From positions 1,888,001-1,952,000 of the forward strand of contig OZ250169.1 in the NCBI GenBank assembly GCA_965237955.1: a stretch of DNA of 64,000 bases, given 5' to 3'. This DNA comes from Candidatus Marinacidobacterales bacterium (GTDB taxonomy: Bacteria; Acidobacteriota; Vicinamibacteria; Marinacidobacterales; SMYC01). The notes beneath the pieces were generated by a model that was not told the origin of the DNA, searched no databases, and saw only the letters and a program-made list of their open reading frames with translations. The translations under genes were made by a program, and so were the position numbers. Shown here in pieces: positions 19,270 to 23,004 of the stretch. Each line of letters begins with the position of its first letter. The first letter of the stretch is position 1.

Positions 19270-19285
19270 GCGCGAGGAGGTGGAC

Positions 19286-20275
19286 ATGAAAAGGGAAAAA
19301 GGGCCGGTCTCTCGATTCATGGAGCACCACTTTCGCCATTTCAACGCGGCCACGGTCATCGATGCTTCGCGCGCGTACGAGGAGCTCGTCGACGGGGACG
19401 GCAAGATGATGATCACGCTCGCGGGGGCCATGAGCACGGCTGAGCTCGGACGCTCGCTCGCCGAGATGATCCGGCAGGAAAAAGTCGACATCATCTGTTG
19501 TACCGGTGCCAACCTCGAGGAAGACGTCTTCAACCTCGTCGCGCACAGCCACTACCAGCGGGTACCGCACTACCGCGAGCTCACCGCCGAGGACGAGGAG
19601 GCGCTCCTCGAGCAGCACTACAACCGCGTAACCGATACGTGCATCCCTGAGGAGGAGGCGATGCGGCGCATCGAGCACGGCATCTACGCGCTATGGGAGC
19701 GCGCCCACAAGGACAACGCACGCTATTTCCCCCATGAGTTCATCTACGAGCTCGTGCGCTCGGGCGAGCTCGAATCGTCCTACGACATCGATCCGGCAGA
19801 TAGCTGGGTCGTCGCGGCATGCGAGAGGAACCTTCCGCTCGTCGTCCCCGGTTGGGAAGACTCGACCCTCGGCAATTTCTTCGCTGCCCACTGCATCCAA
19901 AGGGAGCTGGACCCGAACGTGATGCGTAACGGGATCGAGTACATGATCGAGCTCGCGCGCTGGTACAGCGACAACGCCGAGAACGTCGAGAAAGGCGGCA
20001 TCGGGTTCTACCAAATTGGAGGCGGGATTGCGGGCGATTTTCCGATCTGCGTCGTTCCGATGCTCCACCAGGATCTTGGCAAAACCGACGTGCCCCGGTG
20101 GAGCTACTTCTGTCAGATCTCCGATTCCACCACCAGCTTCGGCTCGTACTCGGGCGCTGTCCCCAACGAGAAGATCACGTGGGGGAAACTCGGGGTCGAC
20201 ACGCCGAAATTCATCATCGAGTCGGACGCGTCGATCGTCGCCCCGCTGATGTTCGCCTGGATCCTCGGGCTGTAG
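19286..20275 (+). CDS. Deoxyhypusine synthase-like protein (probable homospermidine synthase)
   Basis: TLAGAMSTAE, CTGANLEED, PGWEDST, IGGG and GSYSGAVPNEKITWGK; RBS GAGGAGG. Confidence 0.85.
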   Translation: MKREKGPVSRFMEHHFRHFNAATVIDASRAYEELVDGDGKMMITLAGAMSTAELGRSLAEMIRQEKVDIICCTGANLEEDVFNLVAHSHYQRVPHYRELTAEDEEALLEQHYNRVTDTCIPEEEAMRRIEHGIYALWERAHKDNARYFPHEFIYELVRSGELESSYDIDPADSWVVAACERNLPLVVPGWEDSTLGNFFAAHCIQRELDPNVMRNGIEYMIELARWYSDNAENVEKGGIGFYQIGGGIAGDFPICVVPMLHQDLGKTDVPRWSYFCQISDSTTSFGSYSGAVPNEKITWGKLGVDTPKFIIESDASIVAPLMFAWILGL

Positions 20276-20276
20276 C

Positions 20277-20308
20277 CCCCCGCCTTCGCCAAGGCTACGG
20301 CGAGGCCT
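20277..20308. repeat. REP-like palindrome CCGCCTTCGCCAAGGCTACGGCG
   Basis: Short GC-rich imperfect palindrome immediately after the stop of the DHS-like gene. Confidence 0.5.
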
Positions 20309-20368
20309 TTCCGTTTTGACAAACACGCAAGTTTGCGTCGTTAAAAGATTTTTGCCTCTCCTGCCATT

Positions 20369-21589
20369 TCAGTGGATCCTCTCGAGGGTGAGACCGCCAC
20401 AGTTTAGGTAGACGAGACTGATGAGAGCTTCGGCAGAGTGGAGTCCAAAGCTGCGGTGGCTCAGCAGCCGGATTTTGTTGTTCATTCCTTCGAGTCGGCC
20501 GTTGCTGAGTCTCCACGTGACCCACGCGATGACGCCATCGAAGTGGCTGCGGATCATCTTCGCCGCGCGTTTGACGGGCTCTATCCTCGAGCTCATAGCG
20601 CGCCGCAGCCATCCTCGGAGAAACTTCTTGGCCCATGTCTCGGTTTTGTAGGTGTAGAGGTCCATGAAGTCGTCGCGCAGAAGCATGGCGCGGTAGAGGC
20701 GACGATTAGCTCGCACCTGCTCGCGGAGCACCCGTTTGTCTTTCGCGCTGCGGTTGTGTTTGGCCTTGAGAAGGGGAAACTTGGTGTTCTTGAGGTTGCG
20801 CCGGGCAGTCCCTTTGAGCTCGCGCACCAGCTCGCGCCGGGTCTTATCCACGGCCTCGTTCAGATGCTTGACGATGTGGAAGCGGTCAAAGATCACCCGT
20901 GCCTGAGGAGCCTTTTTGCCGACGACAGTTATGTACGGCTCCCACATGTCCATGCTGACCGCTTCGAGCTCCGCGGCTCTTTGTGGTCCGAGCTTGCGGA
21001 AAAACCGCAGCAGCGTCTTGGCCTTGCGCTCCTTTCCCGCCCAGACGACCCGGCCGCTGAGATGGTCTATTACCACTGTTAAGTACTTGTGGCGTTTGCG
21101 GTAGCTGATCTCGTCCATCCCAATCACCCGCAATCCATCGAGCTCGCGCCGCTCATCCCGCTGCTCGGCAACCACTCGCTGGATGATCCGTCGCACCGAA
21201 CGCCACGTCACTCGGAAATAGTTCGCTACGGCGCTGACGTCCGTCCTCTGTGCCAGCCACGCTACCTCTTGTTCGAAGCTTTTGGTAAAGCGGCTTCCCT
21301 TGTCTGCCCAAGGCACCTTTTCTCTGACCACTCCACACCGCCGACATACCACTCGTCGGATCGAGTAGCGAAGATAGGTCCGGACTCCGAACAGGTCCAA
21401 GTGCCGCCAGTAGCGATTGTAGCGATCTTTGTTCTTGCGGACCTTTCGTCCGCAAATCCCGCACAGAGGCTTCCTCCTCCGTGGTACTACATCCACCACC
21501 ACTCTGGCTTTGTCCGCCTGGAAGTAGAAACCTCGGACCCACAGGCCTTGCAATCCGATGAGCTTGTTGACTAACGTAGTAACGCGCAT
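20369..21589 (-). CDS. ISL3 transposase, intact
   Basis: CGICG...CRRCG zinc finger, IGMDE, SMDMW, DRFH and SNGRLEGMNNKI. Start MRVTTLV. Confidence 0.92.
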   Translation of the reverse strand: MRVTTLVNKLIGLQGLWVRGFYFQADKARVVVDVVPRRRKPLCGICGRKVRKNKDRYNRYWRHLDLFGVRTYLRYSIRRVVCRRCGVVREKVPWADKGSRFTKSFEQEVAWLAQRTDVSAVANYFRVTWRSVRRIIQRVVAEQRDERRELDGLRVIGMDEISYRKRHKYLTVVIDHLSGRVVWAGKERKAKTLLRFFRKLGPQRAAELEAVSMDMWEPYITVVGKKAPQARVIFDRFHIVKHLNEAVDKTRRELVRELKGTARRNLKNTKFPLLKAKHNRSAKDKRVLREQVRANRRLYRAMLLRDDFMDLYTYKTETWAKKFLRGWLRRAMSSRIEPVKRAAKMIRSHFDGVIAWVTWRLSNGRLEGMNNKIRLLSHRSFGLHSAEALISLVYLNCGGLTLERIH

Positions 21590-21714
21590 CGCGGGAACGC
21601 TCTTTTCTCTTTCGGAAAAAAAGATTCTAGCGTTCTCGCCGATGCGCATCTACACATGGCTTACCCTCTCAACCCACGGGCCTCACCAAATGCCACTGCC
21701 CCTCAGCGAGAGAC

Positions 21715-22027
21715 GAGGCTGTGGGAAACGCCCCCACGGTTCTGGTCGTTCAGACCTTGCTCACGACTGAGTTCTCTTCGAAGCCTGGAAGGGCGTTTTC
21801 CATAGCCTCCACTAATCGAGCCCCCCCTTCCTTATTCCATATGAATTAATCTTTCTTGTATATATATCAGGAGGGGCCTGTGGGCGCTCGTGGGAAACGC
21901 GAAGCGTTTTCCAAGCGATTGTGGAAAACGCCGCTCCACGTTTGTACGTGCTCACAACCTTTCCCTAAACGCCTCTCTCGCCCGGAGTTTCCGGCGTTTT
22001 CCACAATCGCGGCAGCGTCCATAGGCC
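21715..22027 (+). ncRNA. Putative structured RNA (or ssDNA) inside ISL3 element 2
   Basis: Four stems built on TG(G/T)GAAAACGC/GCGTTTTCCA; their mismatches are G-U compatible only on the + strand. Confidence 0.45.
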
Positions 22028-22149
22028 ATGCCCTCCAACACAAATCAGATCCCCCGAAACGACAGGAGAACCAGATTTTTTCCTCACACCGGCCTCTGCT
22101 TCTTGGTAAAGTACCCATACCGCTGCCCATCACGCTCGTGCTTTGGAGC

Positions 22150-23004
22150 ATGAGTATTCGGAGACGTATTGCAAGAATGGTGATTGACAAGCTAGCGGCA
22201 AGGGCCGACTGGGTTCGAGACTTCTGCGATCAATCGCGGGTCATCCAGGCGCCTTTCGCCATATTTCCACCTCACGAGAGTCAGCTTCCCGTCAAGACGT
22301 CACTCGTCCCACGAGATGGCGAGATGATTTCAGGTCAATTCGCCAAGCCGCTCTGCAACAACATGGTCGTTTTCGGCAACGGCGAGGAGGGTCGCGAGCA
22401 GGGAGCTCTGTTCATTCGAAGCTCCGACATCGGGTTGGTGCCCGAGTCGGTAGGCCGTTGGGCGCCGGACGGAGCCACCCACGTGCTGCTGACCACCGTC
22501 GTCGGTCTGACCGAGAGATTCGACTGTCTCGTGACCTATCGCTTCCTTACGTTCTGCGCTGAGCACTTCTCGACACCGCCGGCGATGGCGCTCGCCCGGG
22601 AAATGTCGAACCAGGCGTTCAAGGAAGTGAACGAGTTCGCACCGGAGCGAGCGGGTGCGGTGATCGAACTTCCCGAACAGGACTGGAAGAATTTTATTCA
22701 GCACCAGGTCGGCGCGATGGCGGCGCCGTTCGCTCTCATGAACTGCAGGAACGTCGTGCGCGAGACGGTGAGCCCTGACCACAAGCTACAACGTTCCCGT
22801 CGAAAGTCGGGCAAGATCCCGCTCTACAATTTCTCCACGCTGAAGATGAAGCCGATGGGTCGCAACGCGGGCGAAGCCGCGCGAGCGATCCACTGGGTGC
22901 GGGGCCACTTCAAGCAGTACACGCCCGACAAACCTCTGTTCGGCAAGATCGCGGGGCTCTTCTGGTGGGAGCCGCACCTCGCCGGCGCCGCCGTGGCTGA
23001 CTAG
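22150..23004 (+). CDS. Hypothetical protein with C-terminal HxVRGH motif (phage-like)
   Basis: Open frame from ATG 22150 with RBS ggag. Basic C-terminus ...RKSGK...AIHWVRGHFKQY...LFWWEPHLAG. Confidence 0.65.
   Translation: MSIRRRIARMVIDKLAARADWVRDFCDQSRVIQAPFAIFPPHESQLPVKTSLVPRDGEMISGQFAKPLCNNMVVFGNGEEGREQGALFIRSSDIGLVPESVGRWAPDGATHVLLTTVVGLTERFDCLVTYRFLTFCAEHFSTPPAMALAREMSNQAFKEVNEFAPERAGAVIELPEQDWKNFIQHQVGAMAAPFALMNCRNVVRETVSPDHKLQRSRRKSGKIPLYNFSTLKMKPMGRNAGEAARAIHWVRGHFKQYTPDKPLFGKIAGLFWWEPHLAGAAVAD

What the first reader, a model, noticed from the sequence alone, without database searches (positions are those of the whole stretch)
21715..22027. Strand-specific structured non-coding element inside an ISL3 element (possible IS-encoded RNA)
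Seen in sequence: about 480 bp between the transposase start and the IR is non-coding and folds extensively. Stems are 21715-21733 with 21791-21809; an outer stem 21875-21888 with 22014-22027; a hairpin TGGGAAACGC-GAA-GCGTTTTCCA; and a perfect 19-bp stem 21915-21933 with 21992-22010. All five mismatches in these stems are G-U wobbles on the + strand, antisense to the transposase, which is the pattern expected from selection on a single-stranded molecule. An AT-rich patch (about 21831-21868) lies just before the multibranch unit and could be its promoter. Inference: a regulatory or guide-like ncRNA, or a nested non-autonomous element. RNA guides are established for IS110 and IS200/605, but to my knowledge not for ISL3.
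Basis: partly seen in the sequence, partly recalled or inferred. Interest (0 to 1): 0.75.

Follow-up and report, generated by a model that had tools for sequence, protein, structure and literature searches.

The report
Portable hairpin module carried by insertion sequences
The folded non-coding stretch in this ISL3 insertion sequence is real and strand-specific, and it is one copy of a widespread three-hairpin module that several unrelated insertion-sequence families carry antisense to their transposase genes; it likely acts as a regulatory RNA, not as a guide.

Summary
Observation confirmed. The IS is window 20354-22072 (1719 bp, ISL3 transposase on the - strand, 8-bp target duplication). The genome holds 52 full-length copies. 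That strand folds far better than shuffles (z -8.6).

The interpretation needs widening. The unit 21875-22027 ("module B") is an outer stem P1 enclosing hairpins P2 and P3. It is not specific to ISL3. A covariance model finds it in 16 of 55 genomes of the order and 48 of 151 of the class. A pattern scan finds it mostly in named Acidobacteriota contigs. There it usually lies just past istB of IS21-family elements. It also lies in IS256-type, rve-type and HTH_28-type elements. It is antisense to the transposase gene in 56 of 57 scored cases.

Covariation is strong: 29-31 of 43 pairs change on both sides. G-U outnumbers A-C by 230 to 9 cells. The model strand is the more stable one in 80 of 83 distinct sequences. 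Rfam 15 has no match.

The guide reading fails. The 41 target duplications all differ, loops are not conserved, and the module serves unrelated transposases. Best reading (inferred): an antisense-strand structured RNA that damps or insulates transposase expression. A single-stranded DNA role is not excluded. No expression data could be obtained.

The parts
20346..20353 (.). 8-bp target-site duplication (AGATTTTT), left copy
   Evidence: Identical 8-mer at 22073-22080. 41 of 52 full-length copies in the genome have a perfect 8-bp duplication.
20354..20378 (.). Terminal inverted repeat at the transposase-distal end of the IS (GCCTCTCCTGCCATTTCAGTGGATC)
   Evidence: Pairs with 22048-22072 (pair I2, extended by eye). 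All 52 full-length BLAST hits start here.
20369..21649 (-). ISL3-family transposase ORF (426 aa). The likely true start is the in-frame ATG at 21589-21587 (406 aa).
   Evidence: Pfam DDE_Tnp_ISL3 E 1.8e-70, HTH_Tnp_ISL3 4.9e-18, Zn_ribbon_ISL3 1.1e-10. The choice of start codon is inference from the sequence.
21591..21639 (.). Imperfect hairpin abutting the likely start codon (arms 21591-21612 / 21618-21639). It could occlude the ribosome site in the transposase mRNA.
   Evidence: pair I6 (22 nt, 73% complementary). The function is inference only.
21715..21809 (+). Hairpin A: 19-bp stem (two G-U pairs) with a 57-nt loop. It is a solitary extra copy of the P3-type box hairpin.
   Evidence: pair I4. 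The P3 part of model R1 recognises it (27.5 bits). Homologues in L024, L051, L016, L028, L020 and L025 keep the stem while the loop varies.
21831..21868 (+). AT-rich patch (21% G+C) ending in TTGTATATATATCAGGAGG. It is a candidate extended -10 promoter for the + strand.
   Evidence: Composition. Similar TG-n-TATAT / AGGAGG boxes lie 5' of P1 in ISL3, rve-type and IS21 contexts of the same bacterial family. It is not a sigma-70 consensus match and is not conserved in distant lineages.
21875..22027 (+). Module B: three-way junction, with outer stem P1 enclosing P2 and P3
   Evidence: Model R1. 57 near-identical copies in the own genome. Homologues occur across order, class and named Acidobacteriota contigs. 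Covariation.
21875..21888 (+). P1 5' arm (pairs with 22014-22027; two G-U pairs)
   Evidence: 10 of 14 P1 pairs change on both sides in alignment A6, and 13 of 14 in A9.
21891..21913 (+). P2: 10-bp hairpin TGGGAAACGC-GAA-GCGTTTTCCA with one G-U pair
   Evidence: At the wobble pair 21894/21910 the 52 genomic copies read 48 G-U, 2 A-U and 2 G-C, with no A-C. 7 of 10 pairs change on both sides in A6.
21915..22010 (+). P3: perfect 19-bp stem with a variable 58-nt loop
   Evidence: pair I1. 12 of 19 pairs change on both sides in A6 and in A9. Loop length and sequence vary.
22014..22027 (+). P1 3' arm
22048..22072 (.). Terminal inverted repeat at the transposase-proximal end (reverse complement GGTTCTCCTGTCGTTTCGGGGGATC)
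   Evidence: pair I2. All 52 full-length copies end here.
22073..22080 (.). 8-bp target-site duplication, right copy
   Evidence: first row.

Best explanation
The folded region is the local copy of a conserved single-strand three-helix module. An outer stem P1 encloses hairpins P2 and P3, and each helix carries a UGUGGG/UCCAYA box with a G-U pair. Insertion sequences of several transposase families carry this module on the strand antisense to their transposase gene. It likely works as an RNA read antisense to the transposase transcript that damps or insulates transposase expression, probably through a shared host factor that recognises the three boxes. Shown: the structure, its covariation, its strand specificity, its position inside bona fide mobile units of ISL3, IS21 and IS256-type elements, and its antisense orientation. 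Inferred: that the active molecule is RNA and not single-stranded DNA, that it is transcribed (in this IS from the AT-rich TGTATATAT box just 5' of P1), and that its effect is on transposase expression. In this ISL3 the module sits in the 483-nt leader between the transposase start and the near inverted repeat. Any transposase transcript started at or beyond that end would therefore carry its perfect complement. In IS21-type elements it sits a few tens of nucleotides past the istB stop codon, so it would be complementary to the 3' end of the istAB transcript.
For: Structure. The + strand z-score is -8.6 against -3.2 for the - strand. In the model-fitted alignment A6 (24 distinct sequences from the order), 96.2% of cells pair. 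29 of 43 pairs change on both sides, against 14.5 +/- 1.9 in shuffles and at most 12 in slid controls. In the separately fetched set A9 (53 distinct sequences), 94.2% pair and 31 of 43 pairs change on both sides, against 18.9 +/- 1.8 and at most 20. RNAalifold on a plain MAFFT alignment, with no model, recovers P1, P2 and the P3 core; 13 of 33 pairs are compensatory. Strand. G-U/U-G against A-C/C-A is 85 to 9 cells in A6 (24 against 7 columns) and 230 to 9 in A9 (26 against 8 columns). The model strand is more stable in 80 of 83 distinct sequences, with mean difference -14.6 kcal/mol. The architecture (P2 5' of P3) fixes the orientation, not the wobbles. Within this genome the P2 wobble pair varies only to A-U (2 copies) or G-C (2 copies) among 52 copies. 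Inside mobile units. ISL3 here has 52 copies, 41 with perfect target duplications. The 2694-bp IS21 of G009 has inverted repeats and 5-8-bp duplications in 3 of 3 copies, with the module 128 nt inside its end. A 1777-bp IS256-type unit of G053 also holds it. Orientation. Of 69 model-confirmed modules from named contigs, 57 have a transposase-type neighbour, and 56 of those 57 are antisense to it. 47 of the 57 lie next to istB; 46 of them lie -15 to 116 nt from the end of the IstB match and one lies 436 nt away. The order- and class-level loci give the same picture. There is no conserved reading frame: a 1-nt indel occurs in L005/L024, and loop lengths do not vary in multiples of three. A promoter-like TG-n-TATAT + AGGAGG box lies just 5' of P1 in four IS contexts of the same bacterial family.
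Against: The sigma-70 consensus scan finds no promoter in 20300-22150, and no terminator-like site lies at the end of the module on either strand. The promoter-like box is not conserved outside the window's own bacterial family. In this ISL3 the module is about 285 nt from the start codon and does not overlap the ribosome site, unlike IS10 RNA-OUT (recalled). Simple antisense pairing does not by itself explain why sequence and structure are conserved across unrelated IS families. The host-factor step is pure inference. The G-U (G-T) asymmetry and the covariation would look the same for a single-stranded DNA hairpin; DNA parameters also favour the model strand in 80 of 83 sequences. The module is dispensable for IS21 proliferation. 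The window's own genome has 84 IstB matches, including a lineage of about 38 copies, and none carries the module. Two cases have the same-sense orientation: L153 and L062 beside an IS110-type gene. Many counted loci are copies of the same IS lineage, so the 56 of 57 overstates the number of independent events. The pattern used for fixes part of the P2 and P3 5' arms by construction.
Confidence: 0.4

Rival explanations
1. It is a single-stranded DNA element. The hairpins would form on one DNA strand during transposition or replication of the IS and act in cis, for example as a priming or host-factor loading site during the replicative 'copy-out' step that ISL3, IS21, IS256, IS3/IS481 and IS110 families are thought to share (recalled from the IS literature).
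For: Covariation and G-T tolerance fit DNA hairpins equally well; with DNA parameters the model strand is more stable in 80 of 83 sequences. No promoter or terminator is conserved around the module. Every IS family in which it was found belongs to the copy-out-paste-in group (the grouping is recalled). The P3 3' arm reads TTTTCCACA, which fits the relaxed DnaA-box consensus TTWTNCACA (recalled), and the P2 apex GCGAAGC is a known very stable DNA mini-hairpin (recalled). The module always lies inside the inverted repeats, close to an end.
Against: The position relative to strand chemistry is inconsistent. In ISL3 the module strand has its 3' end at the near IS terminus; in IS21 and IS256-type elements it has its 5' end there. 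If the transposase-distal end is the donor end, as reported for IS2 (recalled), the displaced strand would be the sense strand, not the module strand. The DnaA-box fit holds only for P3 and is lost in several lineages (rows). The GNA triloop is not conserved. IS orientation shows no bias with replication direction in this genome (15/14 against 18/9, p 0.29). High-copy IS21 lineages do without the module.
Confidence: 0.2
2. It acts in transcripts as a structural barrier, not as an antisense regulator. It would be a terminator or insulator, or a 3'-end or 5'-leader stability element. It would stop transcription that runs antisense into the transposase gene (IS21 position) or out of the IS (ISL3 position), or it would simply cap the transposase mRNA.
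For: It lies -15 to 116 nt after the istB coding end in 46 of 47 istB-adjacent cases, which is where terminators sit. Both strands fold very stably (for example -83.9 and -77.9 kcal/mol). Blocking read-through is a known need of IS elements (established knowledge).
Against: No U-tract follows the structure on either strand. A three-way junction with conserved junction bases and three conserved boxes is far more elaborate than a terminator needs. The optimised strand is the antisense one. The implied role differs between the ISL3 position (blocking outward transcription) and the IS21 position (blocking inward transcription).
Confidence: 0.15
3. It is a selfish or neutral hitch-hiking palindromic cassette (MITE- or REPIN-like). 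It would spread between IS elements by insertion or recombination and have no function for them.
For: Homology borders are sharp at the P1 arms between unrelated contexts: 184-196 bp are shared between IS256-type, IS110-adjacent and non-IS loci. The number of box hairpins varies (extra P2-type hairpins in L010/L029 and L083; solitary hairpin A). Deletions occur between the repeated GCGTTTTCCA boxes (L006/L028). 12 of 69 modules have no recognised transposase nearby.
Against: No target duplication flanks the module in the contexts inspected (by eye). No stand-alone copies exist in the window's genome; the nc region has 0 BLAST hits outside IS copies and the 10-mer occurs at chance level. No transposase with matching ends was found. 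The 56 of 57 antisense orientation and the conserved G-U positions and junction bases over a whole class argue for selection on one strand.
Confidence: 0.13
4. It is a guide or bridge-like RNA that programmes target choice of the ISL3 transposase.
For: A long structured non-coding region lies next to an IS end. The topology (scaffold, then IS end, then flank) superficially recalls right-end RNAs of TnpB elements and IS110 bridge RNAs (abstracts of PMC11208160 and PMC11187229 seen). The P3 loop holds a 7-mer equal to one IS terminus, and the hairpin A loop holds a 6-mer equal to the other.
Against: The 41 target duplications are 41 different sequences and are only AT-rich. The terminus-like loop words are absent from relatives that keep the same inverted repeats (L028, L024, L051). 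The same module serves IS families with unrelated ends. Its orientation relative to the near end is reversed in IS21. The transposase is an ordinary DDE ISL3 enzyme.
Confidence: 0.02

Closest known systems
IS10 RNA-OUT, IS200 art200 and ISPpu9 Asr9: cis-encoded antisense RNAs of insertion sequences
   Same: These are stable stem-loop RNAs encoded inside an IS on the strand opposite the transposase, near an IS end, that limit transposase expression. For art200 (PMC4513863) and ISPpu9 (PMC8450116) I saw only the abstract starts. RNA-OUT is recalled.
   Different: Each of those is specific to one IS and overlaps the transposase 5' end. This module is conserved in sequence and structure across at least five transposase families. 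It usually lies at the 3' end of the transposase operon, and here it is about 285 nt from the start codon. Its transcription is not shown.
IS110/IS1111 bridge RNA (seekRNA) and IS200/605 omega/right-end RNAs
   Same: These are structured non-coding RNAs encoded in the non-coding end region of an IS (abstracts of PMC11208160, PMC11187229 and PMC4615843 seen).
   Different: Those belong to DEDD or TnpB/IscB systems and carry loops or flanks that specify the target. Here the transposases are DDE enzymes, targets are unspecific AT-rich octamers, loops are not conserved, and there is no Rfam hit.
REP/REPIN, BOX and Correia-type palindromic repeats
   Same: These are modular, hairpin-forming repeat units with several related palindromes, sometimes with strand-specific mismatches (recalled).
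   Different: Those are dispersed in intergenic DNA outside IS elements. This module has no stand-alone copy in the window's genome, and 57 of 69 sampled copies lie beside transposase-type genes.
Acido-Lenti-1 (RF01687), Acido-1 and Solibacter-1 motifs of Weinberg et al. 2010
   Same: These are orphan structured-RNA candidates from the same phylum. A sub-threshold Acido-Lenti-1-like hairpin (29.1 bits, cut-off 37) lies about 110 nt upstream of the module in one Lentisphaeria-labelled contig.
   Different: Their seed alignments (supplement file 5 of PMC2864571, passages seen) show unrelated sequences and simple one- or two-hairpin folds. No module copy matches them.

Membership tests
ISL3-family insertion sequence (the carrier) | DDE_Tnp_ISL3 transposase with its zinc-ribbon and HTH domains | tested here: met
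   Pfam E 1.8e-70, 1.1e-10 and 4.9e-18.
ISL3-family insertion sequence (the carrier) | Terminal inverted repeats and 8-bp target duplication | tested here: met
   25-nt inverted repeats (I2). 41 of 52 copies have a perfect 8-bp duplication.
IS110 bridge RNA / IS1111 seekRNA | Encoded by an element with a DEDD (IS110-type) recombinase | tested here: not met
   The transposase is a DDE ISL3 enzyme. Only one module copy (L062) lies beside an IS110-type gene.
IS110 bridge RNA / IS1111 seekRNA | Loops complementary to a specific target and to the IS ends | tested here: not met
   41 different target duplications. The 6-7-nt loop/terminus matches are not kept in relatives.
TnpB/IscB omega RNA | Adjacent tnpB/iscB gene, with the RNA in the same sense at the element's end | tested here: not met
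   No such gene is in the IS, which has a single ISL3 ORF. The module is antisense to the neighbouring gene in 56 of 57 cases.
IS10 RNA-OUT-type antisense RNA | Encoded opposite to the transposase, inside the IS | tested here: met
   Orientation.
IS10 RNA-OUT-type antisense RNA | Overlaps the transposase translation start | tested here: not met
   The module starts at 21875 and the likely ATG is at 21589. In IS21 contexts the module lies past the 3' end.
IS10 RNA-OUT-type antisense RNA | Own promoter and a detectable transcript | tested here: inconclusive
   A promoter-like box occurs only in the window's bacterial family. There is no consensus promoter.
Intrinsic (Rho-independent) terminator | G+C-rich hairpin followed by a U-tract | tested here: not met
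   The scan reports no terminator-like site at the 3' end of the module on either strand. Flanks listed lack T-runs.
REP / REPIN repeats | Many stand-alone extragenic copies in the same genome | tested here: not met
   0 BLAST hits of the non-coding region outside IS copies. The 10-mer occurs 18 + 18 times outside IS copies, about chance for 16 Mb. Model R1 finds only IS-borne copies in the own genome.
MITE (miniature inverted-repeat element) for the module itself | Terminal inverted repeats plus a target duplication around the unit | tested here: inconclusive
   The P1 arms could serve as terminal repeats. No consistent flanking duplication was seen in the contexts listed (by eye). No empty sites were examined.
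Any Rfam 15 family | Match at or near the gathering score | tested here: not met
   The only window hit is mir-3199 at E = 9. 17 homologous loci give no hit over the module.

The most novel reading that the evidence does not exclude
A phylum-wide, portable three-way-junction RNA that insertion sequences of at least five unrelated transposase families (IS21, ISL3, IS256-type, rve-type, HTH_28-type) carry antisense to their transposase. It would be a shared 'IS control RNA' whose three G-U-bearing boxes recruit one host protein. All elements that carry it would then be tied into a common, copy-number-dependent control circuit that acts across IS families.
Probability: 0.2. Interest if true: 0.85.

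Novelty: new variant of a known kind. Interest (0 to 1): 0.62.

Why it matters
IS-encoded RNAs known so far are private to one element or one transposase family, whether antisense regulators or guides. Here one structure, with clear covariation and strand specificity, is shared by unrelated IS families across a large soil phylum. It has no Rfam entry, and the five literature searches I ran found no description. If it is an RNA, it is a new and abundant orphan class: about 230 contig stretches estimated from one narrow pattern, and 48 of 151 genomes of one class. It has an obvious experimental handle in the three boxes, the conserved G-U pairs and the transposition assays. It could show how a host or its ISs keep dozens to hundreds of copies in check. 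If it is a DNA hairpin, it would point to an unrecognised strand-specific step common to copy-out-paste-in elements. Either way, annotating the family would clean up IS-end annotation in Acidobacteriota genomes.

Tried and rejected
1. Small protein. An ORF opens at GTG 21881 behind AGGAGG and runs out of the IS (listed as 21856..23004). I rejected it because a 1-nt indel in L005/L024 shifts the frame, loop lengths do not vary in multiples of three, and Pfam gives nothing.

2. Guide or inverted-repeat mimic. See the rival explanation. The terminus-like 7-mer and 6-mer in the loops looked exciting but are not conserved.

3. Known RNA families. Rfam at E <= 10 on the window region, on 17 homologous loci and on L083 gave nothing over the module.

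4. Stand-alone repeat in the own genome. None was found.

5. Replication-strand bias of IS orientation. None was found.

6. Proliferation advantage. I rejected this as a simple idea because an IS21 lineage of about 38 copies in the same genome lacks the module.

7. Chi-like, attC-like, hammerhead-like, retron-like and tRNA-acceptor-like readings. I considered these from recalled consensus sequences only and dropped them because the defining motifs or partner genes are missing. No tool test was run for them.

8. A broader covariance model from alignment A6 could not be built because the calibration forecast was too long. All searches therefore use R1, which was built from 4 sequences and probably misses distant members.

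9. RNA-seq.

10. A literature search with an organism name that I had guessed from genome size and G+C gave nothing relevant. The guess was probably wrong, because the named contigs that carry the motif are mostly Acidobacteriota.

11. Within-genome polymorphism. Module B has 6 variable columns in 153 nt (3.9 per 100) against 4.8 per 100 in the transposase gene, which is too little variation to show selection.
Full report
**The carrier**

The region lies in an insertion sequence spanning window 20354-22072 (1719 bp). Its single ORF (20369..21649, - strand) is an ISL3 transposase: DDE_Tnp_ISL3 E 1.8e-70, with the family's HTH and zinc ribbon. The in-frame ATG at 21589-21587 gives the N-terminus typical of the family. 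This choice of start is my inference. It leaves 483 non-coding bases up to the IS end.

The ends are 25-nt imperfect inverted repeats (I2), flanked by the 8-bp duplication AGATTTTT. The window's genome (8.13 Mb, 60% G+C, one contig) holds 52 full-length copies at 97.9-100% identity, plus fragments. Of the 52, 41 have a perfect 8-bp duplication. The 41 duplications are 41 different sequences with 80% A+T.

Near-identical copies also occur in other genomes:
- at least 150 module matches in G015, the scoring cap;
- a 99% copy in G009;
- one copy in G025, which belongs to another family.
The element has therefore moved horizontally and recently.

**The observation**

All five mismatches are G opposite T on the + strand. 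The + strand of 21700-22040 folds at -145.6 kcal/mol, z -8.58 against shuffles. The - strand gives z -3.22.

The stems are built from one repeated box (TGTGGGAAACGC / GCGTTTTCCAYA, D1 and D3). The five wobbles are therefore inherited copies of about two positions.

I call 21715-21809 hairpin A. I call 21875-22027 module B, which consists of:
- P1: 21875-88 / 22014-27;
- P2: 21891-900 / 21904-13;
- P3: 21915-33 / 21992-22010.

**Not a stand-alone repeat here**

Outside IS copies the non-coding region has no BLAST hit, and the core 10-mer occurs at chance frequency (18 + 18). The covariance model R1 was built from the window copy and three diverged homologues. In the own genome it finds:
- 57 near-identical copies;
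- five diverged or partial ones;
- 35 weak echoes, which are the reverse strand of P3 or hairpin A.
The diverged ones lie in older relatives of the same IS. One (G000:991051) lies beside an rve-type transposase gene.

**The surprise: the module is not an ISL3 feature**

DNA and model searches of relatives find module B in:
- 9 of 19 genomes of the family;
- 16 of 55 of the order;
- 48 of 151 sampled genomes of the class (E <= 1e-4), often in several copies per genome.

Pfam scans of the neighbouring reading frames place it beside IstB/IstA of IS21-family elements, Transposase_mut (IS256-type), rve integrase-type transposases, HTH_28/HTH_32-type transposases and a second ISL3 lineage (37% identity). 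In one case it lies beside an IS110-type gene.

Where several copies allow the mobile unit to be delimited, the module lies inside it:
- A 2694-bp IS21 of G009 has TGT-initiated inverted repeats and 5-8-bp duplications in 3 of 3 copies. The module is 128 nt inside the end next to istB.
- A 1777-bp IS256-type unit of G053 has the module 226 nt inside its end.

One IS21-type locus of G014 (L007/L025) shares the whole composite with this ISL3 at about 72% identity: hairpin A, then a T-rich spacer, then module B. The segment has therefore been exchanged between IS families. In G008 a transposase-less miniature derivative of this IS keeps hairpin A and most of module B between the same inverted repeats (L006/L028).

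**Wider range**

Nearly all are labelled Acidobacteriota (Vicinamibacterales, Bryobacterales, Thermoanaerobaculia, Holophagae). A few short metagenome-bin contigs are labelled Lentisphaeria, Myxococcales, Gemmatimonadota, Rokubacteria or Chromatiaceae. Binning errors cannot be excluded for these.

Model R1 confirms the full module in 69 of the 80 loci that came with flanks. The 11 without a match include the Clostridium, Glutamicibacter, Chromohalobacter and archaeal records and are probably chance pattern hits.

I ran a tblastn panel of the transposase-type proteins met earlier over the 69 modules. The result:
- 57 have such a neighbour: 47 IstB, 7 HTH_28-type, 3 rve.
- 56 of the 57 are antisense to it.
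- 46 of the 47 istB-adjacent modules lie -15 to 116 nt from the end of the IstB match, and one lies 436 nt away.
- 12 have no panel hit.
Many loci are copies of the same IS lineage, so these are not 57 independent events. Among non-IS21 contexts I count roughly eight or nine separate lineages antisense and two in the same sense (L153, L062).

**Structure and strand**

In the order-level alignment A6 (24 distinct sequences, fitted to the model), 96.2% of cells pair. 29 of 43 pairs change on both sides, against 14.5 +/- 1.9 in shuffles (0 of 500 reach the observed value) and at most 12 with slid partners. An earlier subset, A5, gave 22 of 43.

The separately collected set A9 (53 distinct) gives 94.2% paired and 31 of 43, against 18.9 +/- 1.8 and at most 20. 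For A9, parts of the P2 and P3 5' arms were fixed by the search pattern.

RNAalifold on a plain MAFFT alignment of 14 diverse members recovers P1, P2 and the P3 core without any model. 13 of its 33 pairs show compensatory change.

The strand signal is the strongest result:
- G-U/U-G against A-C/C-A is 85 to 9 cells in A6.
- The same ratio is 230 to 9 in A9.
- The model strand folds more stably than its complement in 80 of 83 distinct sequences, by 14.6 kcal/mol on average.
Orientation is set by the order of P2 and P3, not by the wobbles, so this result is not circular.

Each helix carries the same box, 5'-UGUGGG / UCCA(C/U)A-3', with a G-U at the last G and, in P1, often at the second position. 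The junction bases AAG (between P2 and P3) and GGC (between P3 and P1) are conserved. The wobble positions toggle among G-U, A-U and G-C but almost never reach A-C. Among the 52 copies in this genome the P2 wobble reads 48 G-U, 2 A-U and 2 G-C.

**What it is not**

- No Rfam 15 family matches.
- The Acido-1, Acido-Lenti-1 and Solibacter-1 seed alignments of Weinberg et al. 2010 look unrelated (passages of supplement file 5).
- Five literature searches returned nothing on such an element (I saw listings and abstract starts only).
- There is no conserved ORF.
- No U-tract terminator lies at the module, and there is no sigma-70 consensus promoter.
- It is not a guide. Targets are unspecific, the loop/terminus matches are not conserved, and the host elements and the module's orientation towards the near end differ.
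- IS orientation shows no replication-strand bias.
- It is not needed for IS21 success. The window's genome has 84 IstB matches in several lineages, one with about 38 copies, and none carries the module. One of those lineages does have a different structure past istB that also favours the antisense strand. I did not follow this up.

**How it most likely works**

Shown: a single-stranded, antisense-strand structure under selection, carried inside mobile units of several IS families.

Inferred: the molecule is RNA. The one property constant across contexts is polarity relative to the transposase gene, not polarity relative to the nearest IS end. That fits something defined by transcription better than something defined by end chemistry.

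An RNA read from this strand would be perfectly complementary to the transposase transcript. In ISL3 it would match the 5' leader, provided transcription starts at or beyond the near end, as it would from a circle-junction promoter (recalled for copy-out-paste-in elements). In IS21-type elements it would match the 3' end. This is the logic of known IS antisense RNAs.

Conservation of three identical boxes, G-U pairs and junction bases across unrelated ISs suggests a common host protein partner. That step is the least supported. In the window's bacterial family a TG-n-TATAT box plus AGGAGG lies 5' of P1 in ISL3, rve-type and IS21 contexts, which fits a promoter carried along with the cassette. 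It is not seen in distant lineages.

I put 0.4 on this reading and list the rivals with their tests:
- 0.2 on a single-stranded DNA role in transposition. It is favoured by the lack of transcription signals, by the DnaA-box-like P3 arm and by the stable GCGAAGC apex (both recalled consensus features). It is disfavoured by the inconsistent relation to the ends.
- 0.15 on a terminator or insulator role.
- 0.13 on a selfish cassette.
- 0.02 on a guide.

**Verdict**

It is wrong in scope: the element is not ISL3-specific and is not guide-like.

The earlier scan note e1-1462672 records a look-alike ISL3 stretch in another genome, with nested insertions and a 'small hairpin insert'. It adds that the element occurs elsewhere, but I did not test it.

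Noticed in passing
G015, G025, G009 (loci L002-L004, L021, L031): The same 1719-bp ISL3 occurs at about 99-100% identity in other genera and in one genome of another family. G015 has at least 150 module matches (the scoring cap). This is a recent horizontal spread and burst.
   Followed up: partly
window 21856-23004 (+): A 382-aa ORF starts inside the IS (TTG 21856, or GTG 21881 behind AGGAGG) and reads through the inverted repeat in frame into the flanking gene. It is probably an artefact of the insertion, but the IS could supply an outward start to the neighbour. Pfam gives nothing.
   Followed up: partly
window 19280-20275 (+): A deoxyhypusine synthase-like gene (Pfam DS, E 5.2e-41) ends 78 nt before the IS insertion point. 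The IS sits in the AT-rich spacer after it.
   Followed up: no
window 21591-21639: An imperfect hairpin lies directly beside the likely transposase start codon. Its arms (GCGGGAACGC / GCGTTCTCGC) resemble the module box. It may occlude the ribosome site in read-through transcripts.
   Followed up: no
L006/L028 (G008:C3) and L016 (G008:C2): These are miniature, transposase-less derivatives of this IS. The left inverted repeat plus about 60 nt is joined to hairpin A. In L028 a deletion between two GCGTTTTCCA boxes removes the AT patch and half of P1 and P2.
   Followed up: partly
L052 (G000:C1:6800500-6805500) and G000:C1:4907448-4907516: One site has one copy of the IS nested beside or in an older 87%-identical relative. 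One copy has an 80-bp deletion that removes the P3 5' arm and loop.
   Followed up: no
L062 (G050:C4), module 1501-1678: An IS110-type gene ends about 35 nt before a module copy on the same strand. The module may be a preferred target of that IS110 element.
   Followed up: no
L083 1766-1797 (-): A sub-threshold Acido-Lenti-1 (RF01687) hairpin (29.1 bits, cut-off 37) lies about 110 nt upstream of a module copy in a Lentisphaeria-labelled contig.
   Followed up: partly
L077 861-968 (+): Two CRISPR-DR16-like repeats (33.1 bits, cut-off 35) lie about 600 nt from an IS21-borne module. The IS21 may sit in or beside a CRISPR array.
   Followed up: no
G000:C1:113720-114750 and about 37 similar sites: A high-copy IS21 lineage of the window's genome lacks the module. 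It has a different long structure past istB that is also much more stable on the antisense strand (-150.7 against -123.5 kcal/mol). It may be an analogous, non-homologous element.
   Followed up: no
window 21996-22004 and 21920-21928: The P3 arms read TTTTCCACA / TGTGGAAAA, a fit to the relaxed DnaA-box consensus (recalled). The P2 apex GCGAAGC equals a DNA mini-hairpin reported as unusually stable (recalled).
   Followed up: partly
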